Shown piece by piece: positions 1-12,559 of a stretch of 64,000 bases of DNA. The DNA is taken from NCBI GenBank assembly GCA_002238905.1, contig MPNG01000003.1, forward strand, positions 34,121-98,120, given 5' to 3'. The stretch is from Alphaproteobacteria bacterium bin98 (GTDB taxonomy: Bacteria; Pseudomonadota; Alphaproteobacteria; Bin98). How positions within the stretch are numbered: the stretch's first letter is position 1; each line of letters starts with the position of its first letter. The notes under the pieces are model-generated. The model saw only the letters and a list, made by a program, of their open reading frames with translations, ran no database searches and had not been told where the DNA came from. Both the position numbers and the translations under genes were made by a program.

Positions 1-1024
1 TATCAATATATGGTGGGTTTTTGCCTGGTTTTTGTATAAAACATAAAGAGTTTTCCTTTAAACCATACCGCAAAGATAGGTACTGGTTCACCCTGATAAA
101 AAATTGCCCCACCTGCGCTAAATAAGGGTGAACCCTGCAGTCAACTTTTGTAAGACAGACAGAAAGTGTTTTTTCCACACCAAAACGCACAATTTTCAAT
201 TCACTCCTGGGCTTTCTTTGCATCATACACACAAAATCTGTCACAGTTTTAACAGGCCTCCCATCGCACGAAACAATGACATCACCCACTTTCAGTGCGA
301 CATCAGAATAAAGCATTTTCTCTGATACAAGAATACCTTCTTCATAACCGCTTTCTCCCATAAAAATATGTTTTTCCCACGGCGCCATATACCTAAAACT
401 TAAACCCTTGAGAAAATAAAAATCTCGTCGCTTGCCACCAGACAGCACATGTTCTGTATCCTCCATAAGCTCTTTAACAACTCGGCATGGAACCCATCCC
501 GCAAGAGTGTTAATCGCATACGCCTCATCGTTCTCATTTAAATACAACGCCGCCGGCTCTGAAGCGAGGTCTGGGCTTCCCACAGATTGTCCAGGAAACC
601 CTTTGTGGGATTGATAATCATGGCTAGCATAAAACATAATGCTTTTTTCAACACTATCGCTGACAAAATCCAAAACCTGCTTAAAGCCAGAAGTCGCTGT
701 TAGTGCCTTACTATCAACAAATCGCACTTCTTCACAGCGCGGGAAAGCGCCATTTCCCTCTTCAAGCTGCAGGGTGCAAAGATCGTACAAAGGTTGCACA
801 GCCACAATACGCGCGACACGCCGCTCTCCATGGCTTTGCAAAATAATTTTTCCTCCAACAAAGTAATTGGTTACCTTGCTAAACTGTGCCAAAAACAGAT
901 GGCGCTTTTTATCCACTAAACTGGCCGATGACTCTGGAGCGCCTTTAATGTCATGCACTACAGACACCATGCAATTTTTACACCACAACTCTGCACACAA
1001 AAAACATAACACTATCAACAACAT
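1..1024 (-). CDS. Secreted HtrA/DegP-like trypsin-fold + PDZ protein, paralog 0 (partial; the C-terminus runs off the window edge)
   Basis: Manual translation of the minus strand from the ATG at 1024..1022 gives MLLIVLCFLCAELWC...LVDKKRHLFLAQ...DLCTLQLEE...VALKVGDVIVSCDGRPVKTV with no stop before position 1. It shares the LIDK(K/N)(K/R)xL box and the PDZ-like GDV..V.G motif with the five downstream paralogs. The partial ORF is absent from the ORF track because it has no stop inside the window. Confidence 0.55.
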   Translation of the reverse strand, partial: MLLIVLCFLCAELWCKNCMVSVVHDIKGAPESSASLVDKKRHLFLAQFSKVTNYFVGGKIILQSHGERRVARIVAVQPLYDLCTLQLEEGNGAFPRCEEVRFVDSKALTATSGFKQVLDFVSDSVEKSIMFYASHDYQSHKGFPGQSVGSPDLASEPAALYLNENDEAYAINTLAGWVPCRVVKELMEDTEHVLSGGKRRDFYFLKGLSFRYMAPWEKHIFMGESGYEEGILVSEKMLYSDVALKVGDVIVSCDGRPVKTVTDFVCMMQRKPRSELKIVRFGVEKTLSVCLTKVDCRVHPYLAQVGQFFIRVNQYLSLRYGLKENSLCFIQKPGKNPPYID

Positions 1025-2304
1025 AAACCCCCTCCGATTGGCATAGCAAAGATTGTCGAGGAAGCGCGCGTCTCAAACATAACGAATCTCTTACGACCTT
1101 GCACTGGCTTGAGCATAATGGGCTTCCCTAATCTCAAACAGTCTCTGAGCGTTACATCATCCCACTCTTTTTTTCCATCAATACTGTCTAGATAGAGCAA
1201 AGGATTTAGCATCTTTGGAGGAGAGGAGTACGCAAGAGGCAGTTGCTCATAGTGCGCCACATACGCCAGCCACCTTTGAGGGTCATGCAAATCCCATAAT
1301 GTTCTCAGGAAAGGCGTAATACGGAAAAAAATCATACCACGTTCCTCAATGCGCTCAGGAAACCCAGAAGGCTTTACAGAAGATGGCAGCGATATCACTT
1401 CTCCATCTCTCAGCACCTTCACATCTTGACTATGATAAAAAATACCCTCTGCCGCATACCAAACCTCTTTGCCGTTCATGTGATCTATGTGGCGATATTT
1501 AACAATATCGCCTTCCTTAAACACTCCATCACCCTTCACAACACAATAAATATGCAACGCGTAAGGTTCATCACTGCTGAAAGATAGTTGGGCATCAAGA
1601 GTGTTTGTGTACCACCTTAAGTTGCTTGTTTCTATAAGAGCTGCGGTATAGGTGGTTTCTTTTTGTTGATAGTTTTTATTTGCCTGTAAGCGCTCTAAGG
1701 CATAAGAAATTTTCTCACACGAGGCATAGGTATTGCCCCACACTTGAATACCTACAATTTCATGATTGTCATTCAGCAACAAACCACCATTAACGTCCGT
1801 TATAAGACGCGCATGACCACAACCATCTTGTGTCTTGCCCTCAATCCTTGAGGGTGTCACAAAATAAGACATTTTCCCAAGCTTGGCTAAAAAACCGTAT
1901 ATCTGAATATCTCCCGTATGCTGTGTTGCTTTCACAGGAAGCGCTGGCATATCAGCCGGCACATGATCTGCTTCTACAAGGGCAAAGTCTGCATAAATAT
2001 CTTGATAAATCACATGCGCTGGAGAAGAGGATCCATCTGCAAAAAACATTGTCACTGTTGCATCACTTTGACACTCAAAAAATGTATTATCTGTTAAAAA
2101 CAAACGCTTATTTTTATCTATCAGCGCACCCATGGTTTGTTGCTTATAGTGCTCTTTTACACCCCCGTTTCCCTTATGCACTATGACATGATCACTCTGA
2201 ACACACACAATGGCCAAACTTTTTCCAGGGTCCGCAGAACACCAAACAGCACAAGATAAAAGCATCCAAAAAACCTTAAGCACAACACACCCACTTAGAG
2301 TCAA
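1015..2304 (-). CDS. Secreted HtrA-like trypsin-fold/PDZ paralog 1; the catalytic His and Ser positions appear substituted
   Basis: The 429 aa ORF has a hydrophobic N-terminus. LIDKNKRLFLTDNTFF occupies the position of the HtrA His box (..ILTNxHVV). DIYADFALVEAD is the Asp box, VNGGLLLNDNHEIVGIQ replaces GNSGGPL, and the PDZ-like segment is GDIVKYRHIDHMNGKEV. Its stop overlaps the start of paralog 0. Confidence 0.55.
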   Translation of the reverse strand: MTLSGCVVLKVFWMLLSCAVWCSADPGKSLAIVCVQSDHVIVHKGNGGVKEHYKQQTMGALIDKNKRLFLTDNTFFECQSDATVTMFFADGSSSPAHVIYQDIYADFALVEADHVPADMPALPVKATQHTGDIQIYGFLAKLGKMSYFVTPSRIEGKTQDGCGHARLITDVNGGLLLNDNHEIVGIQVWGNTYASCEKISYALERLQANKNYQQKETTYTAALIETSNLRWYTNTLDAQLSFSSDEPYALHIYCVVKGDGVFKEGDIVKYRHIDHMNGKEVWYAAEGIFYHSQDVKVLRDGEVISLPSSVKPSGFPERIEERGMIFFRITPFLRTLWDLHDPQRWLAYVAHYEQLPLAYSSPPKMLNPLLYLDSIDGKKEWDDVTLRDCLRLGKPIMLKPVQGRKRFVMFETRASSTIFAMPIGGGLCC

Positions 2305-3619
2305 AGGACTGCTTATATTCTGTCATTTTTTTATGATACGGGCAAAAACGAAGCACCATTCGGGGAGCGTACACCCAGGATCGCCACTCTATGTTTATAG
2401 GCTCTGTCGATAATACCACTCCTTCTTTGGAACATTCGGATAACAACGTATAAACATCATCCAGAGAGTGGACTTCTTTGCCATTCATTGCGTATACAAA
2501 CGCCTTAGGATTATAGTTATTGCCTTTCTTGGACATACACGCCAAACGCCTTCCATGTCGTCGAAAAACATGTGATGTTTCAAAAAATATATGCGATCCA
2601 TAATCAATCACGCGATCAGGCGTGAAGGTATCAAGAAAACAAATGGGTGCCTCTACCGTCATCATTTTTCCCATACGCCAAATACGCACACTCACGGTTT
2701 TTTTTCCTTTTGCGATAGCTTTTTCTAAAACACGCCACACATCTGTTATACGATAAACCGGCTCACCTTCTACAAAAAAGATATGATCTCTCACCGCAAA
2801 AGGCATGTTCTGCAGGTGATCACTTGCGTTGCATTCAGAAACTGTCAAAGGACGTTTGTGCACCATAGAGCTATCATATCCTTCAGGCCACACAATCGGA
2901 AGGCCCATAAATTCTGAAAATTCTTCCATAGATTTGTGAGAGAGGAGAGCGCCTATATGGGCAGTAAAAAACACCCCTTGCTTTTTAAAATAATCGCATT
3001 GAAACACAATAGGTGGAGAGGCAGCAATATACAAGCTGTGATCGCTCTTTCGATCAAAGCGCACACCAATCACCGCGCCATTTTCACCAACTACTGGCAC
3101 ATTGAGGGATGGTTCCGCATCTTTGCGCGCCGTATAAGCAGCCGTCATAGGCAACAATCGTGCAGAAGACATCACATCACCCAGCATAACGTTCGTGCTT
3201 GTTTGAGAATGAAGGTCCGAGAGAAACGATACTTTTTGATGCAGCGTGCCCCATTGATCACTCAGCTTGTACTCTTTGTGCGCTTGTAGTTTCTTTCTAT
3301 CACTCTCTTCTACCTGAAACAGCGTAAGAGCACCGATGGATCCCACACAGTGCGCTTTTAACGGATCAGAGCTCCAGGAAACCAAGTGATATTCTCCCAC
3401 TATTGGCAAATTATAAAACTGCAACGATGAGTCAAGGCTCACGCACAAGCCGCGCTCACGATCTATTAAAAACGCGATTTTATCAACCCACAAACTCATA
3501 ACCAATGGCCCTTCAGGATGTATTTGAAAAATGCCATCCAACTCTTTCTCTTTTTGCACAAAGAGCATACAGCACAAAGCCGTCATAACAATAATGCCAA
3601 TAATGATCTTACTACGCAC
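2276..3619 (-). CDS. Secreted HtrA-like trypsin-fold/PDZ paralog 2 (degenerate active site)
   Basis: The 447 aa ORF starts with a signal-like N-terminus, MRSKIIIGIIVMTALCCMLF. LIDRERGLCVSLDSSL sits at the His-box position with no His, and GENGAVIGV sits at the Ser-box position. The PDZ-like segment is AMNGKEVHSLDDVYTLL. It ends in CCA like paralog 1 (..LCC). Confidence 0.5.
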   Translation of the reverse strand: MRSKIIIGIIVMTALCCMLFVQKEKELDGIFQIHPEGPLVMSLWVDKIAFLIDRERGLCVSLDSSLQFYNLPIVGEYHLVSWSSDPLKAHCVGSIGALTLFQVEESDRKKLQAHKEYKLSDQWGTLHQKVSFLSDLHSQTSTNVMLGDVMSSARLLPMTAAYTARKDAEPSLNVPVVGENGAVIGVRFDRKSDHSLYIAASPPIVFQCDYFKKQGVFFTAHIGALLSHKSMEEFSEFMGLPIVWPEGYDSSMVHKRPLTVSECNASDHLQNMPFAVRDHIFFVEGEPVYRITDVWRVLEKAIAKGKKTVSVRIWRMGKMMTVEAPICFLDTFTPDRVIDYGSHIFFETSHVFRRHGRRLACMSKKGNNYNPKAFVYAMNGKEVHSLDDVYTLLSECSKEGVVLSTEPINIEWRSWVYAPRMVLRFCPYHKKMTEYKQSFDSKWVCCA

Positions 3620-4949
3620 TTTTTTCTCCTTCTACAACCCTTTGTTCTGTTATGCCAATACCTTTTTTCAGAGACAAAAGAAGGCCCTTTTGTGCATGTG
3701 CGGGTATTGATAGTTCCTCTAACACAACCCGCTCATTAAATGGGTGAGACAAATAGTGCATGCCGACAGTTAAATAGGGAAGCCCGATCAAAGGCAATAA
3801 ATCATCAAGAGTGTGAATACTTTTACCATTAATGAAGCATACCCATTGATAGAGATTATTGCAGCAACTGTCCAGAACTAACCGTGATATTTCACCAAGA
3901 GGTCGCTCCCACATTTCCCAAAAATCTTTTCCCCCGTAGTGCAGCGCTTTCTCATCTTGTGCGTCATACGTATAAACGGGAAGCGGCATATCCAAAACGC
4001 TTTGTGTGGTGGATCTATAAACTGTTATAGTAGCGCCAGATTCAGCCAAAGATGCACGGTATACATCACCCAGGGTAGGATTCTTTTTTCCATTGACCTG
4101 CAAAACAACATCTCCCACTTCCAGGGGATGCGAATGTTTGATCTCACATGGATCAAAAAAAATCCTTTGAATGTACAGGTAACGCTTATGGCTTTCCAAG
4201 TGCTTTGATGGCCCCAACATCTCTACCAAACCAGATCCATCTTCATACACAAATTCGTATCCTCTCAAAGCCCGACTGGTTATGCCATCATCTTCACAAA
4301 TCAAGCGTTTCTTTGCTCTTTCAACAAATTTTTTCACTTGGTAGGAGGGAATAATAGTTGTACAATTGCGCGAACCTTGAAACACCATACCAACCAATTT
4401 TTTATCACGACTTAACAAAGGAGAACCACTTGATCCAGCGTGAAAATTCAAAGGCCCCACCGCACTATAAGATTCCATTACAATGTTCATACGCTGAAAC
4501 GATGTGTCAGACCCTCCCATCAAACCTTTGCCAAAGATAAAACCACCACCACTAGAGTTGTTAATAGTAAAAACTTCCATACCAACATAAACGTCATCTA
4601 CAAATCCTGCGATTTCTTCATAGTCCTCTAAAAACGCAGGGTCTACCTGCAAAGCCGCCAAATCGCTGGCACGATCAATCAACACGACCCTAGCTTCTGC
4701 AGAACTGCCATTTTTTGTGTGCAAAAAATAATTTCCTCCATTACAATAGAACACTGCATGAGCGTTAGATAAAACAAGGCCTCTTTTTTTATCCACAATT
4801 ACAGAGCTTGCGCAGTAATGAGTGCTACGCCCTCGGCGCACAACTATCTGCGTTGTGGGCATAAACACTTTACACAAATAGTTTTCCATGTGAGTGTCTG
4901 CAAAAGCTGATTTTGACATAAAAAATAGAAGGAGCACCACCCACATCAT
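3612..4949 (-). CDS. HtrA/DegP-family periplasmic serine protease with PDZ domain; the only array member with an intact His-Asp-Ser triad
   Basis: The 445 aa ORF has a signal peptide, MMWVVLLLFFMSKSAFA. VIVDKKRGLVLSNAHAV is the HtrA His box, ARVVLIDRASDLAALQV is the Asp box and NFHAGSSGSPLLSRDKKLVGMVFQG is the GNSGGPL-like Ser box. The PDZ motif is LEVGDVVLQVNGKKNPTLGDVYRAS. Confidence 0.75.
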   Translation of the reverse strand: MMWVVLLLFFMSKSAFADTHMENYLCKVFMPTTQIVVRRGRSTHYCASSVIVDKKRGLVLSNAHAVFYCNGGNYFLHTKNGSSAEARVVLIDRASDLAALQVDPAFLEDYEEIAGFVDDVYVGMEVFTINNSSGGGFIFGKGLMGGSDTSFQRMNIVMESYSAVGPLNFHAGSSGSPLLSRDKKLVGMVFQGSRNCTTIIPSYQVKKFVERAKKRLICEDDGITSRALRGYEFVYEDGSGLVEMLGPSKHLESHKRYLYIQRIFFDPCEIKHSHPLEVGDVVLQVNGKKNPTLGDVYRASLAESGATITVYRSTTQSVLDMPLPVYTYDAQDEKALHYGGKDFWEMWERPLGEISRLVLDSCCNNLYQWVCFINGKSIHTLDDLLPLIGLPYLTVGMHYLSHPFNERVVLEELSIPAHAQKGLLLSLKKGIGITEQRVVEGEKSA

Positions 4950-6124
4950 AACTTCCCTCTTAATATTGCTGGCTGTATGCAGTCTTGCAAGATCTTCGAG
5001 TGAAGTTTTTGCTCAAGGCCTATTTGTTTCTGCTCCAGGATAATTTTTAACTTCTCTAGCGTCATCTTTCTGCCGTCACTTGTAAACACCTGGTAGGCTT
5101 TTTTTCTACCACGTGGCAAACAAACCGCCGTACCCACAGAGGCTTTCCAGTTAAAATACTCTGCTGTAAAAGGTGATTGAATAAAACATACAGCATCTGC
5201 GTTCGCGATACAGCCTGCTTGCAATTGGGTAAACCTTTCCGTCGGAAGCAGCACCTTTTGCAAACCTCCATCTCGCCACACCTCCCATTCCACAAAAGGT
5301 ATGTTGGCAGACTCTATCACTGCATTGTAGTGGCTTGGATAAAGGCCATTCACTGCAAATAAAACATCACAAACTTTCAAGCCGTTCCGATTCTCTGTCA
5401 TGACGGAAAAAAGAAAAGGCTCTCCTGGATACCTCTGACTAAAGATATTGAGCATTTCTTCTGTCACAACTTTATGTGTCAAAAGAGTCGATGCGTAAAA
5501 TGTTGCGCTCTCCAGAGGAACATAGCGCATTTCTTCCGTGTGTCGAGATAGGAGCATTTTTAAGGATTTTTTTATAAATTTTGCACGCACAAAAGAAGCA
5601 TTTATAGCAACACCAACTAAACCATCTTTAGAAAACAATAAGGGTAGAGCGCTGCTTTCATTCCATCTTTGCCAAAAGTATCCATTCGTGCGCTGATAGA
5701 CATTATTTTCATAAGCCAAGAGGGTTTCTGTGACTTCCGACTCATTCGCATGATAAGACCACACTTGTGTTGGCAAATTTTCATGATCATCAAGTGGTAT
5801 GGCATGGCTTTCTTCAGGAATTTCTTCAGCTTGCAAAAACATAAAGCCATGTATGGGGTGAACAAAAACAACACGAGCGTTCACTAACATACCCCCATGC
5901 AAACACAGCCTTACCTTTGTTACAGGCGCAATATGCACCAAGGAAAGGAACGCAACAAAAAGCTTTTTTTCCTTGTCAATAAGAGCGGTGGGAACTATGT
6001 GTTTTTCTGGCGAACCTTCTTTAAAAACTTCTACCATTGCGGACCCAACGCTTTGCGACACACACGCAGGATCTGGCGCAGCGCCACACAAAGACAAAAC
6101 ATATAGTAGCGCTATCCACTTCAT
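4946..6124 (-). CDS. Secreted HtrA-like trypsin-fold/PDZ paralog 4 (degenerate active site)
   Basis: The ORF track extends to 6259, but the likely start is the internal Met of MKWIALLYVLSLCGAAP (signal peptide), at about 6124, which abuts the paralog-5 stop. ALIDKEKKLFVAFLSLVHIA sits at the His-box position and SKDGLVGVAINASF at the Ser-box position. The PDZ-like segment is CDVLFAVNGLYPSHYNAV. Confidence 0.5.
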   Translation of the reverse strand: MKWIALLYVLSLCGAAPDPACVSQSVGSAMVEVFKEGSPEKHIVPTALIDKEKKLFVAFLSLVHIAPVTKVRLCLHGGMLVNARVVFVHPIHGFMFLQAEEIPEESHAIPLDDHENLPTQVWSYHANESEVTETLLAYENNVYQRTNGYFWQRWNESSALPLLFSKDGLVGVAINASFVRAKFIKKSLKMLLSRHTEEMRYVPLESATFYASTLLTHKVVTEEMLNIFSQRYPGEPFLFSVMTENRNGLKVCDVLFAVNGLYPSHYNAVIESANIPFVEWEVWRDGGLQKVLLPTERFTQLQAGCIANADAVCFIQSPFTAEYFNWKASVGTAVCLPRGRKKAYQVFTSDGRKMTLEKLKIILEQKQIGLEQKLHSKILQDCIQPAILRGKL

Positions 6125-7509
6125 GCGGCCCAACCTGCTCTTTTGGTGCACTGCTGTTCTAAATTGACAAATCTGGATAGTTTTTTTGATGGCAAAAAAC
6201 AGCCTTTGTTTGTACTGGTAAGTAGCAAATCTATACCACTCAAAGCAATATTTTGGCAAGCAAGCATCGCTATATCCACCAAATCTGAAAAGTTTTTAAC
6301 AACCTGACCATTTGCGGACTGCACAAAAAATCTATCACCTTGGGAATAAGGGGTAAAAGGGTCAGCAAAGCGCATCACCACGCCACCCATACCTTCCATG
6401 CCTGGCACACGCGCATCGGTAAACAGAAGTGGTCCCCAATAAAATAAGCGCTTAGGGGCATAATCCAGTGAATTAGATACGGGCGTTTGCACCGTCTTTT
6501 TGACGCCTCTTCTGAGCACCGTTAACTGAATCATAGGGGCATTATCTTCGGCCGCTTTATCCAAAAAGGACTGTAGCAGATCCGGGTTTCTGCTTATATC
6601 ATGCTCACAACCTTGGTAGTGCAAAGAAAGCACAACATCGCCAATATGGGGGGCATTTTCTTCCACAGGCATCCTAACGTTCTTCACTATGAGTTGCTGA
6701 GCATATCCATAACGCTCCATAATCCCTTTGGGAAGTGTAGCAGTATCAATGCCATCAAAACAGCATCGGTCAACCAAAAACCCCCCTTTTAAGCTAGTAG
6801 CCGGCAAAAACCCACGTTTTGTATTTTTCCCTTTCTTTTTAAACGCAGCCACCAGATCTCTGATACCCCCTATGTCCATCACACGCATATTGCGCCGCCT
6901 TCCTTGCATGACACCGCAGCACTTATTGTCTTTATTGAGAAGGAGCATGCCTTGCACAACATCCTCACACTCAAGAGGACAAGCCACAGTAACGCGCATT
7001 TTGTTATTAATCGATGGTTCTTCCAAGATTCTTTTGTGTAGCTCTTTGAAATAGGGTGTCGCGTGAAACAAAAATACCTCTTGGCCTTGATGCACAGTCT
7101 CTTGTGCAAAACGCACCTCCTCATCATTGGCAATATTATCAAGAAACGAATCCTCTATCTGCATAATAAGCGTTGATGTGGGATGATCTATAAAGACAAT
7201 GTGTGCATCCATAGAGCCGTGGGTAGCGCTATAAATATAGCAGCGCTCATCTCCCGTAAAGTAGGTTGCGTTATCTGTATACACCAGCATAAGCCCTCTC
7301 TTTTTATCAATCAGCATGCCAACAGATTTCTTAAACGTTGATTCACTTTGCAACCCTACATAGCGCGGAGCAAAAGAAACTTTATACCAAGTAGGAACTG
7401 ACGAAAACAGCCATGAACAAATGAAAAATAAGAAAAATGACCGCCTCATGGGCACAACATAACACACTAGCGCAACCCAGAAAAGAATTCTTGCAAAAGT
7501 GCGGCGCAA
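6121..7509 (-). CDS. Secreted HtrA-like trypsin-fold/PDZ paralog 5 (degenerate active site)
   Basis: The 462 aa ORF has a hydrophobic N-terminus. MLIDKKRGLMLVYTDNATYF sits at the His-box position with no His in register. The PDZ-like segment is HIGDVVLSLHYQGCEHD. The start region overlaps the tadA stop. Confidence 0.5.
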   Translation of the reverse strand: MRRTFARILFWVALVCYVVPMRRSFFLFFICSWLFSSVPTWYKVSFAPRYVGLQSESTFKKSVGMLIDKKRGLMLVYTDNATYFTGDERCYIYSATHGSMDAHIVFIDHPTSTLIMQIEDSFLDNIANDEEVRFAQETVHQGQEVFLFHATPYFKELHKRILEEPSINNKMRVTVACPLECEDVVQGMLLLNKDNKCCGVMQGRRRNMRVMDIGGIRDLVAAFKKKGKNTKRGFLPATSLKGGFLVDRCCFDGIDTATLPKGIMERYGYAQQLIVKNVRMPVEENAPHIGDVVLSLHYQGCEHDISRNPDLLQSFLDKAAEDNAPMIQLTVLRRGVKKTVQTPVSNSLDYAPKRLFYWGPLLFTDARVPGMEGMGGVVMRFADPFTPYSQGDRFFVQSANGQVVKNFSDLVDIAMLACQNIALSGIDLLLTSTNKGCFLPSKKLSRFVNLEQQCTKRAGWAA

Positions 7510-7934
7510 GGCTCTTCCAGCACACCTCCTAAAATTAAAGTCGGGTAGGGAGGTTTGCCAACAGGAACCTCTTTATCAAACGCGCCAAAGCAGAGCGTAT
7601 GCAGTCGCATACGCTGCAAAACGGCCGAGCACATTGTGCAGGGCTGAAGTGTGACATATAGTGTGCACTCACTCCAATACCTGCGCTCCATGTTATGCGC
7701 CTTCTGCGCGCATAATAACTCAGCATGCGCCAAGGGATTATTATCGCGCTCCACACGATTTGCATGCTCTACCACCAACGTATCTTGATGCCAAAGTGAA
7801 GCGGCCACTGGCACTTCGCCATATTCTTTTGCTTCTTTTGCTAGTGTGTAAACGCGTTGCATGCGCTGGGTATGCATATCACCATTACGCAACCATTCCT
7901 CAAGGGTTGCTGAGGCATACTCCAAATCAGACAT
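7467..7934 (-). CDS. tadA: tRNA-specific adenosine deaminase
   Basis: The 155 aa ORF carries the CDA-fold zinc motifs HAELLCAQKAH (HAE) and PCTMCSAVL (PCxxC). Confidence 0.8.
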   Translation of the reverse strand: MSDLEYASATLEEWLRNGDMHTQRMQRVYTLAKEAKEYGEVPVAASLWHQDTLVVEHANRVERDNNPLAHAELLCAQKAHNMERRYWSECTLYVTLQPCTMCSAVLQRMRLHTLCFGAFDKEVPVGKPPYPTLILGGVLEEPCAALLQEFFSGLR

Positions 7935-8609
7935 TTATCGGCGCACCAAGCAGTCTTCTCCGCTATTTTTCAGGGATCGACACAACTGATTTGCTTCTGA
8001 CAAGGGCATATCCGCAATCGTCACGCGGTAAAGAGTGCGACCCTTCACTTTTGTTTGCATCAACACCACTTTGTCTCTGCTACCTACAAGAAGGCTTTTG
8101 TACGGGTCACGCTTGCTAAGATTACGTATTAAAGTTGTTGCTTGAGCACGCGTTTTAAACGTTGCCAAATCAAGATCCACCATTGTATCTGGAACCGTTT
8201 GTTTTTTTTCGGTGGCCACTACACGATCTTCATCTGTATAAATATTCACAACATCTGAGTGGATGCTGTAGTAATTACGACCTTCTCGTTGAGGCTCTTT
8301 TATTGCAGGAATCTCTTTGCGTCCTACAGAAGTATCTCGGGGACGCTCAGGCTCTTTATCCAACAAACGATAAACCGCCATGCCTTTGTCTTCAGCGCGA
8401 TATCCACCAGGCTCGGATGGCACTGCGCGCACAACGCCGCTTGGTGCTTGCACATAGATAACCCCACGGCTTTCTGGCGGAGAAAACACAAACCAAAGCA
8501 AAATAATAATAATGAGAATAAAAGCAACGAGTGCTAAGCGTACTCGTACGCTCATACGCCGTCCAGCGTATATATATTTTTCTTCTTCTTCAGAACGCCA
8601 ATCGCTCAT
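7935..8609 (-). CDS. SPOR-domain membrane protein (peptidoglycan-binding; septal or cell-wall associated)
   Basis: It has an N-terminal TM segment, LALVAFILIIIILLWFVF, and a C-terminal SPOR-like segment, GRTLYRVTIADMPLSEANQLCRSLKNSGEDCLVRR. Confidence 0.55.
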   Translation of the reverse strand: MSDWRSEEEEKYIYAGRRMSVRVRLALVAFILIIIILLWFVFSPPESRGVIYVQAPSGVVRAVPSEPGGYRAEDKGMAVYRLLDKEPERPRDTSVGRKEIPAIKEPQREGRNYYSIHSDVVNIYTDEDRVVATEKKQTVPDTMVDLDLATFKTRAQATTLIRNLSKRDPYKSLLVGSRDKVVLMQTKVKGRTLYRVTIADMPLSEANQLCRSLKNSGEDCLVRR

Positions 8610-8663
8610 ACACTACCCTGAAAACCCTATCCATTGCAGCCCATTATATCATGAAGAAAGCCA

Positions 8664-9170
8664 TTACGAAGAAGCTATATTGCTGTACAAATTAGTAAAA
8701 AATTTTTTCATGGGCATCTTACACACACCATAGCGGCGCGCAAAGTCTAGCCACCACACAAAACCCAACTCTGGAAGAGGATTCAAAAAATCTTCGTTGC
8801 GCGTAACACGCCAGTGGTGCAAACGCAGAATGCATTCCCACACACACCACAAAGGCACATGATGCTTGGGCATGTCATGATGGCATGATGCACTATAAAT
8901 CTTATATAAATATTGCGATTTTATCTTGATGTGAGGGACTTTGGGGGGCGCTGGCGCCACATCGGCCGCCTTCACAACATCGGAAGATGTCAAGCGCATA
9001 GTCATACGACTACCGACTTCAAGGCATAAGCCTAAAGACATAGCTTCCCGCACATGATGCAGCTCCACGCCATCCACCACGAGCAGACATGCGGACCCAC
9101 GCTGCACACGCATATTGACACTTTGTGGGGAGTTTTGATAAAAAAAATCAACGATCTTTGCGATATTCAC
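8664..9170 (-). CDS. Hypothetical Cys/His-rich protein
   Basis: The 168 aa ORF lies on the same strand immediately downstream of rpsU. No recognisable family; it has clusters of His/Cys (CHHDMPKHHVPLWCVWEC). Confidence 0.4.
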   Translation of the reverse strand: MNIAKIVDFFYQNSPQSVNMRVQRGSACLLVVDGVELHHVREAMSLGLCLEVGSRMTMRLTSSDVVKAADVAPAPPKVPHIKIKSQYLYKIYSASCHHDMPKHHVPLWCVWECILRLHHWRVTRNEDFLNPLPELGFVWWLDFARRYGVCKMPMKKFFTNLYSNIASS

Positions 9171-9176
9171 AAAGCT

Positions 9177-9380
9177 TTAATCATCACGACCAAATCGTTT
9201 TGAGTTAAGCTTACGCAAACGCTTAACCGATTCAGCGCGCTCACGAACTCTTTTTTCAGAAGGCTTTTCATAGCTTTGGTGCATTTTAAAGGCTTTCAAA
9301 ATACCTTCTTGCATAACCCGTCTTTTAAAAACCCTTAATGCCTGTTCAGCTTTATCATCAGAAACAAATACTTTAACCAC
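9177..9380 (-). CDS. rpsU: 30S ribosomal protein S21
   Basis: The 67 aa protein reads MVKVFVSDDKAEQALRVFKRRVMQEGILKAFKMHQSYEKPSEKR, a typical S21 sequence. Confidence 0.85.
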   Translation of the reverse strand: MVKVFVSDDKAEQALRVFKRRVMQEGILKAFKMHQSYEKPSEKRVRERAESVKRLRKLNSKRFGRDD

Positions 9381-9528
9381 TTCTTCTCCTGTAGCAAACT
9401 ATTGTAGCACACCCCTCTATCATTCTCAATTGTGGCAACAATTATACAGACAACACGCACTTTTTAATCACCAACAGCAACCACCCTTGTTCTGATACAG
9501 TAAAAACTGTAGTCTGTTTGGGGGAGTT

Positions 9529-10044
9529 ATGATGTTATTTTTACTAATATTTTTATTATCGTTAGTGGGATGTGGCCCACAAATGCATGACACTGTCGAG
9601 TCGTTACCACGCGGCGCCTACATTCTGGACAAAGAATCTTTTATGAAGACGCCAAAACCAGTGACACCTTATGTTGTGCACTTCTTGCGATCAAAGGGAT
9701 TCCTGATTAATCCTTTAAACATCAAAGGGCGGATGCTGAGATACACGCTTTTTGCAGATTACAAAGTCATTACAGAAGGAAATCAAAACGTTGCTGTTTT
9801 GCGTTTACTGGCTGATTGTCCGCGCAACAAGCGAGGCAATGCCCTGATAACTATCAAGCGCACCATTGATCCAAATGAACCGCTCGATCGTCATATTCGC
9901 CTTATGGTGACAGCGCTTGACAACAAATTCCCAATTGTTAATGGGTCAGGGCAAGCAACGTGCTCATTTGAATACGGCCTTGAAAGCTCTTTTTCCGCCA
10001 AAGGTAGATTAAGATCCAACAGATCTAACAGTATGAGAAGATAA
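9529..10044 (+). CDS. Putative lipoprotein, hypothetical
   Basis: It has a signal peptide with a lipobox-like LLSLVGC motif. No recognisable family. Confidence 0.45.
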   Translation: MMLFLLIFLLSLVGCGPQMHDTVESLPRGAYILDKESFMKTPKPVTPYVVHFLRSKGFLINPLNIKGRMLRYTLFADYKVITEGNQNVAVLRLLADCPRNKRGNALITIKRTIDPNEPLDRHIRLMVTALDNKFPIVNGSGQATCSFEYGLESSFSAKGRLRSNRSNSMRR

Positions 10045-10055
10045 TAAAGCTTTTA

Positions 10056-10083
10056 AAACACACACCTTTCAAGGTGTGTGTTT
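10056..10083 (+). terminator. Putative intrinsic terminator-like hairpin
   Basis: A perfect 11-bp inverted repeat, AAACACACACC-TTTCAA-GGTGTGTGTTT, is followed by CTT. It lies directly after the stop of the 9529..10044 gene. Confidence 0.4.
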
Positions 10084-10145
10084 CTTGGAACCACAGGCTT
10101 GTGCGCCCCCACCCTTTTGACATATACTATCCTTGGAGGAATTTC

Positions 10146-10670
10146 ATGATTCATTTACTACTTGCCGCGCTGCTGATCTCATGTGCTCACAACAAACAGA
10201 ACTCACCAACGCGTTATACACACAACGCAACAACTATACCTTTGCTGATCTCTAACATTTCTGTTGCCTTCCCTGAAAACATGGATGGGCACACTATCAA
10301 AGAAGTAGACTCTCTAGGCATCTGTGGAGCACTAACCGAATGGAGTCAAAAACGCTTCCAAACACACGGTGATGGCACAATGCGCGTCATGGTAACAACA
10401 GAAAAAGTGCCAACCACAGGCCCTATAACCAAAAACTTCTGGAACCACAACGCTTTAATCATTACTATTCATATTACAGGATCATCATTGTATACGGATG
10501 TAAAACTGCGCATTAAGGCACATCGATCCATGAACATTTTCCGCTACGGTCCTCCGAAGCATGGAACGCCAGCATGGGCTGAATTTATGACTAACCTTAT
10601 CAACTCTGTTGATGCACAAGTGGTGAGCGGATTACAAAAATATGCGCCAAAACTTTTGGTGCACAACTAA
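10146..10670 (+). CDS. Putative lipoprotein, hypothetical
   Basis: The track ORF starts at 10074, inside the upstream hairpin. The likely start is the in-frame ATG at 10146, giving MIHLLLAALLISCAHN (lipobox-like). No recognisable family. Confidence 0.45.
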   Translation: MIHLLLAALLISCAHNKQNSPTRYTHNATTIPLLISNISVAFPENMDGHTIKEVDSLGICGALTEWSQKRFQTHGDGTMRVMVTTEKVPTTGPITKNFWNHNALIITIHITGSSLYTDVKLRIKAHRSMNIFRYGPPKHGTPAWAEFMTNLINSVDAQVVSGLQKYAPKLLVHN

Positions 10671-10709
10671 TAATCTAACAGCGCTGCTTGAACATAAAAG
10701 CTCTTGTTT

Positions 10710-11315
10710 CTATTGAAAATATGAAACAAGGGCTTTTTTTAATGCAGATAGTCCAAAAAAGACTATAAGAAGCGGTGACACTAACACAGCCCTCTGCATC
10801 CATGTGTTGGCCTTCTGACGCATAATATACGCCAACAATCCATAACAGCAGTAAGCGGTACTGCTGCCTAAAGCAGCTCCCAAAGCCACTTGTAGTTTTT
10901 CTATAAGGAGTAATTCTGCGCTAAGTGTAGGTGTCATCACCATCAGGTTAATAACCAACACCGTGGTAAAAGGACACACCAACGAAAGCGCAGCCGGCCA
11001 CCAAACTGCAGCGGCGCTTGGCTCACCATAGCGTATATTTTTATTGGAAACATGAGCGTGTGCAGCCACACATAAAACCAAAATACCCATCACCGTATAA
11101 AGAGCAGTAGGAAAATTCTCCACCAATACAACAATGTACGTATTTAAAAACATAGCCAACATAACGTGACACCCTATGGAACAACCCAACAAGGCTTGAG
11201 CTATTAAAAAATCTCTCAGTGATCGTGTCGCCGCCATACACAACAACAAAATCACCACTGGCCCAACCGGCAAAACAATATAGGCCCCTATTTTGATTCC
11301 TTCCCAAAAAAACAT
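10710..11315 (-). CDS. LysE/RhtB-type amino-acid exporter family membrane protein (paralog 3 of 3)
   Basis: The 201 aa polytopic membrane protein has the N-terminus MFFWEGIKIGAYIVLPVGPVVILLLCMA. It is paralogous to the two upstream genes. Confidence 0.55.
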   Translation of the reverse strand: MFFWEGIKIGAYIVLPVGPVVILLLCMAATRSLRDFLIAQALLGCSIGCHVMLAMFLNTYIVVLVENFPTALYTVMGILVLCVAAHAHVSNKNIRYGEPSAAAVWWPAALSLVCPFTTVLVINLMVMTPTLSAELLLIEKLQVALGAALGSSTAYCCYGLLAYIMRQKANTWMQRAVLVSPLLIVFFGLSALKKALVSYFQ

Positions 11316-11323
11316 ATCTCCTC

Positions 11324-11941
11324 CTAAAACCAGGATCCTCCTTTATAAGTCTGCAGGGATTGATGAAGTGAGGATAAACCATAAAAAACTAAAATCAGTG
11401 GTGTATACATCACACCATTTTTCATCCAACTATCTGCTTTCTTACGTAAAAGGAACAATATAAAACCTTCAGAACAATAAACGCTCATGCTACCCAAAAT
11501 AGCACCAAGCGCCACACATAACTTATCGGTTAGCTCCAAATCCACACACAAAGAAGGGGTGTTAATCATTAAATTAATCACAAGTACCGTAGTGAAAGGA
11601 CACAAAAGAGACAAAACCCCAGGACCCCATAATTTTGTGTTTCTCGGCAAACCATAGCGAATCTTTTGATTAGTAGCGTACAAACGCCAAGCCGAAAACA
11701 ATACCAGAAACCCCATCATTGCATAAAGCTCCACCGGAAATCGCTCTACAAGCTCTCTAATGTATGCGTGAAAAGACATGGCCACCATAAAGTGTGTGCC
11801 CACAGCCAATCCAACAAGAAACTGTGCTACTAAAAAATCTTTCATGGAGCGCAAGATGGCCATACACAAAAGAAGAATCACCACAGGACCAACCGGTAGC
11901 GCTAAAGCAGCGCCAATTTTGAAACCTTCAACTATAAACAT
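11324..11941 (-). CDS. LysE/RhtB-type exporter family membrane protein (paralog 2 of 3)
   Basis: The 205 aa protein has MFIVEGFKIGAALALPVGPVVILLLCMA and RYG, CPFTTVLVINLM motifs shared with 10710..11315. Confidence 0.55.
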   Translation of the reverse strand: MFIVEGFKIGAALALPVGPVVILLLCMAILRSMKDFLVAQFLVGLAVGTHFMVAMSFHAYIRELVERFPVELYAMMGFLVLFSAWRLYATNQKIRYGLPRNTKLWGPGVLSLLCPFTTVLVINLMINTPSLCVDLELTDKLCVALGAILGSMSVYCSEGFILFLLRKKADSWMKNGVMYTPLILVFYGLSSLHQSLQTYKGGSWF

Positions 11942-12559
11942 TTAAAACCACAATACATAAGCCTGATACAAACTCTCAGCGCTATAAAACAAAACAATAA
12001 TAGGCGCCAACTTCACAAGAAAAATACTCACTCTTAGCGACATTTGTTCTGAAAGCCTAAACACCATAAACGCTAAAGAAAAGTAGGTAGCCGCGCCACT
12101 CAACCCTGTTGCAAGAGAGGTTACTGCTATCTCCAAAGGTGTGAAGGGCACCTGCAGCCTCTCTGTGCCAAGAAACAAATTCAACACCAGCAAACCGATA
12201 AAAGGACACAACAAAGAAATCAAAGCAGGCGTGTAAACCTTAGTGACAGGCCGAATGTTACGAATATCAATTTTGCGACCAGTCATAAAAGCGTTGAGGG
12301 CAACAAGCGCCACTGCAACACCCATCACAAAATAAAACTGCACAGCATACTCTTTTACATACTGAAGAATCACTGCCTGAAAAACTAAAGCGACTGTTGT
12401 ATGCGCCACTATAGACATACCTGCCCAAAAGGATGCCAAAGGCCACATGTTCCAGCCTTTTGTGGTTAAAACCATGCTAATTAATGTAATAGCAACAGGC
12501 CCTATAGGCAAAGCTACCTTAAAGCCTATTAAGAAACCTTCCATTATTTTATCTAGCAT
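11942..12559 (-). CDS. LysE/RhtB-type exporter family membrane protein (paralog 1 of 3)
   Basis: The 205 aa protein has MEGFLIGFKVALPIGPVAITLISM and LLCPFIGLLVLNL, matching the two downstream paralogs. Confidence 0.55.
   Translation of the reverse strand: MLDKIMEGFLIGFKVALPIGPVAITLISMVLTTKGWNMWPLASFWAGMSIVAHTTVALVFQAVILQYVKEYAVQFYFVMGVAVALVALNAFMTGRKIDIRNIRPVTKVYTPALISLLCPFIGLLVLNLFLGTERLQVPFTPLEIAVTSLATGLSGAATYFSLAFMVFRLSEQMSLRVSIFLVKLAPIIVLFYSAESLYQAYVLWF

What the first reader, a model, noticed from the sequence alone, without database searches (positions are those of the whole stretch)
1..7509. Tandem array of at least six translationally coupled, secreted HtrA/DegP-like (trypsin-fold + PDZ) paralogs
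Six consecutive minus-strand genes, one running off the window edge, encode ~430-460 aa proteins with hydrophobic N-termini. They share a conserved (L/V)(I/V)DK(K/N/E)(K/R)xL box at the position of the HtrA His box and a C-terminal PDZ-like GDV..V.G motif. Pairwise they are highly divergent. Adjacent genes overlap start/stop by 4-29 nt (the 139-nt overlap of the last pair is resolved by the likely internal signal-peptide start at ~6124). The sixth copy, 1..1024, is not in the ORF track and was found by manual translation. Bacteria normally carry one to three DegP/DegQ/DegS homologues. A six-plus-member divergent array in an otherwise streamlined genome suggests a lineage-specific secreted protein family built on a protease scaffold. 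It could be periplasmic or surface-exposed, and may be host-interaction related.
Basis: partly seen in the sequence, partly recalled or inferred. Interest (0 to 1): 0.85.

Follow-up and report, generated by a model that had tools for sequence, protein, structure and literature searches.

The report
Conserved six-gene HtrA pseudoprotease cassette
A sponge-associated alphaproteobacterium carries an operon of exactly six very divergent HtrA-type (protease + PDZ) paralogs, only one of which can still cut protein, and the same six-slot cassette recurs in distant relatives, which suggests a multi-subunit periplasmic protease/chaperone complex rather than a set of independent secreted proteins.

Summary
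Six back-to-back minus-strand genes (A–F, window 1–7509) overlap by 4–10 nt. All have hydrophobic N-termini and all are HtrA-derived.

Three corrections:
1. The array has exactly six genes, not "six or more". On longer contigs gene A is 411 aa and is followed by convergent dksA, smr, tim44 and a malic-enzyme gene.
2. Only the third gene, D (3612–4949), keeps the triad: His64, Asp96, Ser174. The other five are pseudoproteases.
3. The nearest outside relatives are Nma111/DEG7-type HtrAs, not DegP/DegQ/DegS. None of the six reaches a curated NCBIfam cut-off.

The new result is that the cassette is conserved slot for slot. I recovered four more complete cassettes and one partial one from related marine MAGs, including a 1.47-Mb chromosome. 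Each protein's best match is the protein in the same slot elsewhere, at 20–33% identity. The full triad is found only in slot 3, and one cassette there has Cys in place of Ser. One contig carries two complete cassettes.

The best reading, which is inferred and not shown, is a stoichiometric periplasmic hetero-oligomer with one catalytic and five non-catalytic subunits. I found no description of such a cassette in the literature searched. I rate it a new variant of a known kind.

The parts
6121..7509 (-). Slot 1, gene F. HtrA-derived pseudoprotease with protease-like, PDZ1 and PDZ2 regions. It is 442 aa from ATG 7449 (JGI call) or 462 aa from TTG 7509 (NCBI call). His, Asp and Ser are all replaced.
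   Evidence: ORF. Alternative starts. No Pfam or NCBIfam hit. Independent HtrA-relative HMM E=1.9e-10. blastp to D 2e-11. Triad columns. Orthologs in slot 1 of other cassettes.
4946..6124 (-). Slot 2, gene E. Pseudoprotease of 392 aa from ATG 6124; the open frame runs on to TTG 6259. The start overlaps the stop of F as ATGA. His and Asp are lost; Asp is Gly in all five slot-2 orthologs.
   Evidence: junction. HMM E=7.6e-11. Triad. Orthology.
3612..4949 (-). Slot 3, gene D. The only member with a complete catalytic triad: His64 (4760-4758), Asp96 (4664-4662) and Ser174 in GSSGSP (4430-4428). [quoted passage not shown]
   Evidence: Pfam Trypsin_2 6.3e-12. HMM E=4.5e-37. AF2 model with pLDDT 83.9 and pTM 0.83. 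Foldseek top hits DegQ, Deg9, Deg2 and DegP at E about 1e-18 over 430-480 columns. Residue coordinates. Triad conserved in slot 3 of 5 of 6 cassettes, and His-Asp-Cys in the sixth.
2276..3619 (-). Slot 4, gene C. Pseudoprotease of 447 aa with a GTG start and a good Shine-Dalgarno sequence (GGAG). The triad is lost. The long hydrophobic N-terminus could be a signal anchor.
   Evidence: Pfam gives only a weak PDZ_2 hit (0.008). HMM E=5.6e-17, spanning the protease remnant, PDZ1 and PDZ2. Triad.
1015..2283 (-). Slot 5, gene B. Pseudoprotease of 422 aa from GTG 2283; the alternatives are TTG 2304 and ATG 2265. It keeps Asp only.
   Evidence: Pfam Trypsin_2 below threshold (0.0017). hhalign against the DegQ alignment E=7e-5. 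HMM E=6.9e-16. Triad.
1..1024 (-). Slot 6, gene A. Pseudoprotease cut by the window edge, with 341 of its 411 codons in the window. The full gene is L001:13926-15161. By the MAFFT alignment it keeps Asp only.
   Evidence: MAFFT alignment (this region was not aligned by hmmalign). HMM E=2.5e-9. PDZ match to the DegQ alignment E=4.6e-4. The array ends here and convergent dksA follows.
7467..9429 (-). Upstream genes that may be co-transcribed with the array: tadA (7467-7934, abutting or overlapping the start of F), a SPOR-domain gene (7935-8609), a 149-aa orphan (8664-9113) and rpsU/S21 (9177-9380). The best sigma-70-like site on this strand is at 9429-9401.
   Evidence: Pfam labels on the JGI and NCBI gene calls. 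Translations. Promoter scan, which is a consensus match only, with fewer sites than shuffled controls. The same rpsU..tadA-then-array synteny is seen in L015 and L011.

Best explanation
Shown:
- Window 1-7509 holds an operon-like cassette of exactly six HtrA-derived paralogs (slots F-E-D-C-B-A). Each has a hydrophobic N-terminus, a chymotrypsin-fold domain and PDZ regions.
- Only slot D keeps the His-Asp-Ser triad. The other five are pseudoproteases.
- The duplications and the inactivations are old. Related host-associated alphaproteobacteria carry the same six slots in the same order with one-to-one orthologs, and the cassette has been duplicated as a whole.

Inferred:
- The six proteins are exported to the periplasm.
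- They are made in near-equal amounts by translational coupling.
- They assemble into one hetero-oligomeric HtrA-type particle. HtrAs are built from trimers that pair into hexamers, so a particle with one copy of each subunit is the obvious guess.
- In that particle D supplies the single proteolytic site. The five inactive paralogs would supply the oligomerisation scaffold, PDZ-based substrate or activator binding, and chaperone surface, and would probably gate D allosterically.
- The likely task is envelope protein quality control or processing in a reduced genome of about 1.5 Mb.
For: Six genes and no more:
- Longer contigs place convergent dksA, smr, tim44 and a malic-enzyme gene directly after gene A.
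- No seventh member lies within +-10 kb of any cassette, or anywhere in the 64-kb window.

HtrA ancestry:
- A profile of the six matches solved HtrA1 and DegP across protease plus PDZ1 (3e-11 to 1e-9).
- An exhaustive scan of 1.84 billion representatives puts Nma111/DEG7-type HtrAs on top (1e-30 to 1e-15).
- An HMM built from 69 non-array relatives hits all 33 cassette proteins.
- The D model (pLDDT 83.9) matches DegQ, Deg9, Deg2 and DegP over its full length.

One active member:
- Slot D keeps His-Asp-Ser in 5 of 6 cassettes and His-Asp-Cys in the sixth. No other slot has a full triad in any cassette.

Conserved cassette:
- L015 (OZ253461.1, a 1.465-Mb chromosome), L011, L019, L016 and the partial L018 carry it.
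- Reciprocal best hits always fall in the same slot.
- The cassette proteins are monophyletic against the eight non-array relatives used as outgroup (100% bootstrap), and slot D has the shortest, most basal branches.
- Flanking housekeeping proteins are 34-64% identical between genomes W and X, so the clade is deep.

For a complex rather than independent proteins:
- Slot number and order are fixed.
- Junctions are tight. In the window four are 4-10 nt overlaps and C/B is a 29-nt overlap to a 10-nt gap, depending on the start chosen. In the other cassettes they run from a 16-nt overlap to a 16-nt gap.
- In the two whole-cassette copies Z1 and Z2, at 41-53% identity, all six genes remain intact.

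Precedents:
- The degenerate protease domain of DEG7 mediates trimerisation (PMC3194040).
- Deg5 and Deg8 form 1:1 heterohexamers (PMC4754418).
- The pseudoprotease MamO activates the active HtrA MamE (PMC4794232).

Export:
- All 33 proteins have an N-terminal hydrophobic stretch.
Against: - There is no direct evidence of physical interaction.
- Export rests on hydrophobic N-termini alone, because SignalP was not available. Several of these N-termini lack a positively charged n-region or could be membrane anchors.
- The orthologs are only 20-33% identical. They diverge faster than most neighbouring housekeeping proteins, which also fits diversifying host-interaction proteins.
- The partial Tara cassette has slot B split into two ORFs. 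If that is real, a slot can be lost.
- Only five complete cassettes and one partial cassette were found, so 'always six' rests on a small sample.
- I could not check whether these genomes also encode a canonical DegP or DegQ.
Confidence: 0.5

Rival explanations
1. The six are independent secreted or surface-exposed proteins used in host (sponge or other invertebrate) interaction. The HtrA/PDZ scaffold has been repurposed as binding modules that evolve quickly, and each protein acts alone.
For: - All have signal-like N-termini.
- Cysteine content is 2-5% in most members, as expected for extracytoplasmic proteins.
- They diverge fast, at 20-33% identity between orthologs against 34-64% for neighbouring housekeeping genes.
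- The organisms come from sponge and other marine metagenomes and have small genomes.
- PDZ domains are general peptide-binding modules.
Against: - Effector families in arms races usually show gain and loss of copies. Here the number (six), the order and one-to-one orthology are fixed across a deep clade, and duplication is of the whole cassette.
- One catalytic member is strictly retained in the same slot.
- Start/stop overlaps imply equal dosage.
- No type-specific secretion signal or secretion-system gene lies next to the array.
Confidence: 0.2
2. One protease (D) works with five separate regulators or chaperones that act on or with it transiently, as MamO acts on MamE, without forming a fixed-stoichiometry particle. 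Alternatively, the six form several smaller sub-complexes.
For: - The MamO/MamE precedent.
- The five pseudoproteases differ strongly from each other, with pairwise blastp often not significant. That would allow five distinct roles.
- Slot-specific sequence features are conserved across cassettes.
Against: - Translational coupling and invariant order are more typical of obligate complex subunits.
- HtrA-fold domains oligomerise as trimers by default (PMC3194040).
Confidence: 0.2
3. They are ordinary redundant housekeeping DegP/DegQ/DegS paralogs, or decaying duplicates on the way to pseudogenes.
For: - Profiles match DegP and DegQ.
- NCBI annotates D simply as 'serine protease'.
- Five copies have lost their catalytic residues.
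Against: - None reaches a curated NCBIfam cut-off. D scores 34 bits against a cut-off of 416 for the Do family.
- Five of the six cannot be proteases.
- All reading frames are intact and retained in every complete cassette over a divergence at which RF-1 is only 57% identical. This rules out neutral decay.
Confidence: 0.05

Closest known systems
Nma111 (yeast) / DEG7 (plant) HtrA proteases
   Same: - They are the nearest sequence relatives outside the cassette clade. The top non-self hit is the Nma111 of the fungus Zancudomyces culisetae, at 1e-30.
- The unit architecture is the same: Trypsin_2, then a PDZ, then a second PDZ of the PDZ_1 type.
- An active HtrA unit is combined with a degenerate, triad-less HtrA unit, and that degenerate unit mediates oligomerisation (PMC3194040).
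   Different: - In DEG7 and Nma111 the two units are fused in one polypeptide of about 1000 aa, and the proteins are eukaryotic. Here the units are six separate bacterial genes, one active and five degenerate.
- Pfam PDZ_1 is not detected in the window proteins.
DegP / DegQ / DegS (bacterial periplasmic HtrA, MEROPS S1C)
   Same: - The fold and domain order match: chymotrypsin-fold protease followed by PDZ1 and PDZ2.
- An N-terminal export signal is expected in both.
- D has the His-Asp-Ser triad in a GxSGxP motif.
   Different: - DegP, DegQ and DegS are homo-oligomers of active subunits.
- None of the six reaches the curated family cut-offs.
- Five of the six have lost the triad.
- I found no report of a six-gene cassette for these families.
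Deg5-Deg8 heterohexamer of the Arabidopsis thylakoid lumen
   Same: It is a precedent for a hetero-oligomeric HtrA particle made of paralogs at a 1:1 ratio, in which only one partner is active as a recombinant protein (PMC4754418).
   Different: It has two subunit types rather than six, it is eukaryotic and nuclear-encoded, and Deg5 lacks PDZ domains. Membership was not tested and no close sequence relationship was seen.
MamO / MamE of magnetotactic alphaproteobacteria
   Same: An HtrA-fold pseudoprotease is encoded in the same gene cluster as an active HtrA protease and activates it (PMC4794232).
   Different: MamO is fused to a TauE-like transporter domain, binds metal and serves biomineralisation. 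No such domains or context occur here. The NCBIfam MamE and MamO models are not hit by the window proteins.

Membership tests
HtrA/Deg family (MEROPS S1C) | Chymotrypsin-fold (Trypsin_2) protease domain | tested here: met
   D passes Pfam Trypsin_2 (6.3e-12), and its AF2 model matches DegQ, DegP, Deg2 and Deg9. The other five fall below Pfam thresholds but align collinearly to an independent HtrA-relative HMM, with E from 1e-9 to 1e-17.
HtrA/Deg family (MEROPS S1C) | Catalytic triad His-Asp-Ser | tested here: not met
   Met only by D (His64, Asp96, Ser174). A, B, C, E and F lack one to three triad residues. They are HtrA-derived pseudoproteases, not HtrA enzymes.
HtrA/Deg family (MEROPS S1C) | At least one C-terminal PDZ domain | tested here: met
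   HMM alignments run through PDZ1 (the GDIIwsVNG strand) in all six, and into PDZ2 in C and F. The D model shows two beta-rich domains after the protease and aligns over 430-480 columns to two-PDZ HtrAs. Pfam PDZ hits on their own are sub-threshold.
HtrA/Deg family (MEROPS S1C) | Trimer-based oligomer | not testable with these tools
   No multimer prediction tool was available.
Do family DegP/DegQ (NCBIfam TIGR02037, PRK10942, PRK10139) and DegS | Score above the curated family cut-off | tested here: not met
   D scores 34.3 bits against a cut-off of 416 for TIGR02037. The other five give nothing, or hits with E>=7.5e-4 that are far below their cut-offs.
Nma111/DEG7 subfamily | Two HtrA units (one active, one degenerate) fused in one polypeptide of about 1000 aa | tested here: not met
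   The six genes are separate ORFs of 392-462 aa, each with its own start and stop.
Nma111/DEG7 subfamily | Second PDZ of the PDZ_1 type (PF12812) | tested here: inconclusive
   PF12812 is found in the nearest relatives. It is not reported for any window protein even at E<=1, although the region aligns to the relatives' second PDZ in C and F.
Sec-exported periplasmic protein | Cleavable N-terminal signal peptide | tested here: inconclusive
   All 33 cassette proteins have a hydrophobic stretch within the first 20 or so residues. D has an AFA|D site and B a CSA|D site. No SignalP-type predictor was available, and C may be a signal anchor.

The most novel reading that the evidence does not exclude
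The cassette encodes an obligate asymmetric hetero-hexameric HtrA particle, with six different subunits and one active site. This would be a bacterial periplasmic counterpart of the shift from homomeric to heteromeric rings seen in eukaryotic proteasomes and CCT. It would have evolved by fixing five pseudoprotease paralogs as structural and regulatory subunits, and it would be inherited, and even duplicated, as a unit.
Probability: 0.4. Interest if true: 0.85.

Novelty: new variant of a known kind. Interest (0 to 1): 0.72.

Why it matters
HtrA proteases are textbook homo-oligomers. A conserved cassette of one active and five inactive paralogs would be the most elaborate HtrA subunit differentiation I know of. 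It would give a natural system for asking how pseudoenzymes become fixed as scaffold or regulatory subunits. It would be a bacterial counterpart, in separate genes, of the fused DEG7/Nma111 arrangement.

It also marks a poorly known clade of marine alphaproteobacteria, known only from sponge and other marine metagenome assemblies, with genomes of about 1.5 Mb. In a genome that small, keeping about 7.5 kb for this cassette implies an important envelope function. The hypothesis is directly testable by co-expressing the six genes.

Tried and rejected
- AF2 of D with only the six paralogs as alignment gave an unusable model (pLDDT 45.8). It was replaced by a model from an 81-sequence alignment.
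No pseudoprotease was therefore modelled.
- The word-indexed homolog search with D alone found only D itself. The first genome-contig scan found nothing. The second found only the source chromosome of L015.
- The alignment of slot-D orthologs was too divergent to seed a collection scan.
- The single metagenome-contig scan returned only a lone, non-array 535-aa relative (L021).
- The afdb50 fold library was unavailable.
- Single-sequence hhalign against a small DegQ alignment was weak for E, C and F. Family HMMs resolved this.
- The HMM unintentionally included six cassette orthologs. It was rebuilt without them.
- The promoter and terminator scan gave nothing above shuffled background.
- Literature searches found no description of such a cassette.
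- The C-terminal Cys-containing tails of C, B and A (CCA, LCC, YCG) were considered as a shared motif. I rejected this because the orthologs do not conserve them.
- I could not decide whether cassette Y and cassettes Z1/Z2 belong to one genome. They come from the same samples but lie on different contigs.


Full report
**1. The observation**

The ORF list for window 1-12000 shows five consecutive minus-strand ORFs of 429-462 aa: 1015-2304, 2276-3619, 3612-4949, 4946-6259 and 6121-7509. Translating 1-1024 on the minus strand gives an open 341-codon N-terminal fragment of a sixth gene. I call the genes F, E, D, C, B and A in the order they are transcribed.

The junctions, read from the sequence:
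- F/E and E/D are ATGA overlaps.
- D/C overlaps by 8 nt and B/A by 10 nt.
- C/B is a 29-nt or 8-nt overlap, or a 10-nt gap, depending on which of three starts is used.

The 139-nt F/E overlap in the raw ORF list disappears when E starts at ATG 6124. Composition is uniform across the window, at 41-47% GC with negative GC skew in all but one 2-kb bin, so the region is not an island.

**2. How far the array extends**

Protein D occurs on 24 public contigs. On a 96-kb JGI contig (L001) and on NCBI MAG GCA_026710745.1 (L002), gene A is 411 aa. It is followed at once by a convergent dksA/traR-type gene, then smr, tim44 and a malic-enzyme gene.

Upstream of F lie tadA, a SPOR-domain gene, an orphan and rpsU. 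An HMM of the family finds no further member in the 64-kb window or within +-10 kb of any cassette. The array therefore has exactly six genes.

**3. What the proteins are**

Curated libraries recognise only D:
- D passes Pfam Trypsin_2 at 6.3e-12. B (Trypsin_2, 0.0017) and C (PDZ_2, 0.008) are sub-threshold. E has only weak hits to unrelated families, and F has none.
- NCBIfam gives D 34 bits against a cut-off of 416 for the Do family, and essentially nothing for the others.
- Pairwise blastp among the six runs from 2e-11 (D-F) to not significant.

Profile methods settle the homology:
- A profile of the six matches solved HtrA1, DegP, DegQ and HtrA2 across protease plus PDZ1, at 3e-11 to 1e-6.
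- An exhaustive HMMER scan of 1.84 billion representatives finds 3,527 relatives. Apart from the six themselves, the best are proteins of about 900-1100 aa with three matched stretches and single-unit proteins of about 440-540 aa.
- Nine of the best hits were scanned with Pfam. All carry Trypsin_2, most also carry PDZ domains, and the three long proteins plus one single-unit protein carry PDZ_1. The top hit is annotated as pro-apoptotic serine protease Nma111 of the fungus Zancudomyces culisetae.
- An HMM built from 69 single-unit relatives, with every cassette protein excluded, hits each of the six collinearly: D 4.5e-37, C 5.6e-17, B 6.9e-16, E 7.6e-11, F 1.9e-10, A 2.5e-9.

- The 'LIDKKRxL' box is the family's 'fivDkkrGlivTNaHV' strand, which runs into the catalytic His.
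- The 'GDV..V.G' motif is the 'GDIIwsVNG' strand of PDZ1.

An AF2 model of D from an 81-sequence alignment is confident (pLDDT 83.9, pTM 0.83). Its best PDB matches are Legionella DegQ, plant Deg9 and Deg2, and E. coli DegP, at E about 1e-18 over 430-480 aligned columns. That confirms a protease domain followed by two PDZ domains.

**4. One enzyme and five pseudoenzymes**

D has His64 (NAH), Asp96 (SDLA) and Ser174 (GSSGSP). B and A retain only the Asp. E has a Ser at the nucleophile position but no His or Asp. F and C have none of the three.

**5. The cassette is conserved elsewhere**

The proteins closest to D in the exhaustive search (P0044, P0032, P0145, P0103, P0024), and the one closest to F (P0152), all lie in six-gene arrays:
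- **X:** L015, which is OZ253461.1, 'MAG: Alphaproteobacteria bacterium', a 1,465,401-bp chromosome. Synteny matches the window: rpsU..tadA, then six genes of 452, 432, 446, 448, 426 and 397 aa, then dksA, smr, tim44 and the malic-enzyme gene.
- **Y:** L011, an 80-kb contig from JGI 3300007060. tadA is followed by genes of 475, 415, 438, 435, 435 and 415 aa.
- **Z1 and Z2:** L019 and L016, two complete cassettes about 5 kb apart on one 154-kb contig, next to pyruvate-dehydrogenase genes.
- **T:** L018, a partial cassette on a Tara scaffold.

All-against-all blastp of the 33 proteins shows that each protein's best hits sit in the same slot of the other cassettes. Identity is 20-33% between lineages and 41-53% between Z1 and Z2. 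Cross-slot hits are far weaker.

In a neighbour-joining tree the cassette proteins are monophyletic against the eight non-array relatives used as outgroup (100% bootstrap). Slot-D proteins form the short-branched base. Slots F, C and B group by slot except for the long-branched X proteins, while slots E and A are clades with 60% and 84% support.

The full triad is present in slot D of W, X, Y, Z2 and T. Z1 has His-Asp-Cys there. No other slot has a complete triad in any cassette, and slot E has Gly in place of Asp in 5 of 5 orthologs. The duplications and inactivations therefore predate the split of these lineages.

That split is deep. Between W and X, RF-1 is 57% identical, the malic enzyme 58%, S21 64%, TadA 39% and Tim44 37%, against 22-33% for the cassette proteins other than slot F, which barely aligns between these two genomes. 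Gene junctions are tight in every cassette, from a 16-nt overlap to a 16-nt gap.

**6. Source organism**

One of the runs that carries the window sequence, SRR6214543, is an Aplysina aerophoba (Mediterranean sponge) metagenome. NCBI labels the MAG only 'Alphaproteobacteria bacterium'. The relatives come from other marine metagenomes and from a cobiont-type chromosome assembly of 1.47 Mb. No rRNA gene lies in the window, so finer taxonomy is open.

**7. Mechanism**

Shown: a fixed six-slot cassette, one catalytic member, five pseudoproteases that keep the protease-like and PDZ regions, hydrophobic N-termini on all 33 proteins, and start/stop overlaps.

Inferred: the six are exported and assemble at equal stoichiometry into one hetero-oligomeric HtrA particle. 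D is the only cutting site. The pseudoproteases provide oligomerisation, PDZ-mediated ligand binding or chaperoning, and allosteric control.

Four arguments favour a complex over independent proteins:
- Copy number and order are invariant across a deep clade, with no gain or loss of single copies.
- Duplication is of the whole cassette, and all twelve genes remain intact in Z1 and Z2.
- The junctions allow translational coupling.
- HtrA domains trimerise by default, and in DEG7 it is the degenerate protease domain that does so (PMC3194040). Deg5 and Deg8 form 1:1 heterohexamers (PMC4754418), and the pseudoprotease MamO activates MamE (PMC4794232).

From my own knowledge, operon gene order often mirrors the assembly order of a complex, which would explain the fixed order. 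None of this shows physical interaction, so I give the complex model about 0.5.

**8. Rival explanations**

- **Independent secreted host-interaction proteins (0.2).** Fast divergence, cysteine content and host association fit. The fixed architecture does not.
- **One protease plus five transient regulators or chaperones, or several sub-complexes (0.2).**
- **Ordinary redundant DegP/Q/S paralogs, or decaying duplicates (0.05).** This is contradicted.

**9. Comparison with known families, and novelty**

The cassette belongs to the HtrA superfamily, and its nearest branch is the Nma111/DEG7-type. It fails the defining features of DegP/DegQ/DegS (curated cut-offs) and of Nma111/DEG7 (a fused double unit). 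Five members fail the HtrA enzyme definition because they lack the triad.

It works most like DEG7, but with the active and degenerate units in separate proteins, and like Deg5-Deg8, but with six subunit types. Full-text searches found no description of such a cassette. I rate it a new variant of a known kind, with interest 0.72.

**10. Limits**

- No pseudoprotease structure was obtained.
- There was no signal-peptide predictor, no multimer modelling and no whole-genome check for a canonical degP.
- Only five complete cassettes and one partial cassette were sampled.
- It is unresolved whether Y and Z1/Z2 belong to one genome.

Noticed in passing
window 10710-12559 (-): There are three tandem paralogous genes of 201, 205 and 205 aa, encoding very hydrophobic, apparently polytopic membrane proteins with no Pfam family. 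Orphan genes of about 205 aa, also without a Pfam family, occupy the same syntenic position in L011 (two) and L015 (one), but their homology was not tested. This is a second orphan tandem family in the same neighbourhood.
   Followed up: partly
L019:6188-7561 (cassette Z1, slot D): The catalytic Ser is replaced by Cys (GGGSCGAPVL), while His and Asp are kept. This may be a cysteine-nucleophile variant of the HtrA active site, as in viral 3C-type chymotrypsin-fold proteases.
   Followed up: no
L019:3499-11452 and L016:7321-15313 (JGI 3300007060, contig Ga0101640_1000002): Two complete six-gene cassettes, 41-53% identical slot by slot, lie about 5 kb apart next to pyruvate-dehydrogenase genes. 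A third cassette (L011) comes from the same samples on another contig. If all three belong to one genome, it would carry 18 paralogs.
   Followed up: partly
L018:3114-4420 (Tara scaffold): Slot B of this partial cassette is split into ORFs of 86 and 357 aa. This could be a frameshift, an assembly error, or real loss of a slot.
   Followed up: no
window 7449-7509 and 9401-9429 (-): The 3' end of tadA (7467) either overlaps the start of F by 43 nt (TTG 7509) or sits 17 nt upstream of it (ATG 7449). The best promoter-like site on this strand lies just upstream of rpsU. The cassette may therefore be the distal part of an rpsU-orphan-SPOR-tadA-FEDCBA transcript. The same synteny is seen in L015 and L011.
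   Followed up: partly
window 9529-10044 (+) and 10146-10670 (+): Two adjacent orphan ORFs have lipoprotein-like N-termini, with lipobox-like L-V-G-C and L-I-S-C motifs, and no Pfam family.
   Followed up: partly
window 1-64000: GC skew is negative in all but one 2-kb bin of the window, down to -0.30, and most long ORFs are on the minus strand. The whole window appears to lie on one replichore.
   Followed up: no
window 1015-3619 and L001:13926-15161: C, B and A of the window organism end in Cys-containing tails (…WVCCA, …GGLCC, …LQYCG), and most cassette proteins contain 2-5% Cys. The tails are not conserved in the orthologs, so they are probably not a motif.
   Followed up: yes
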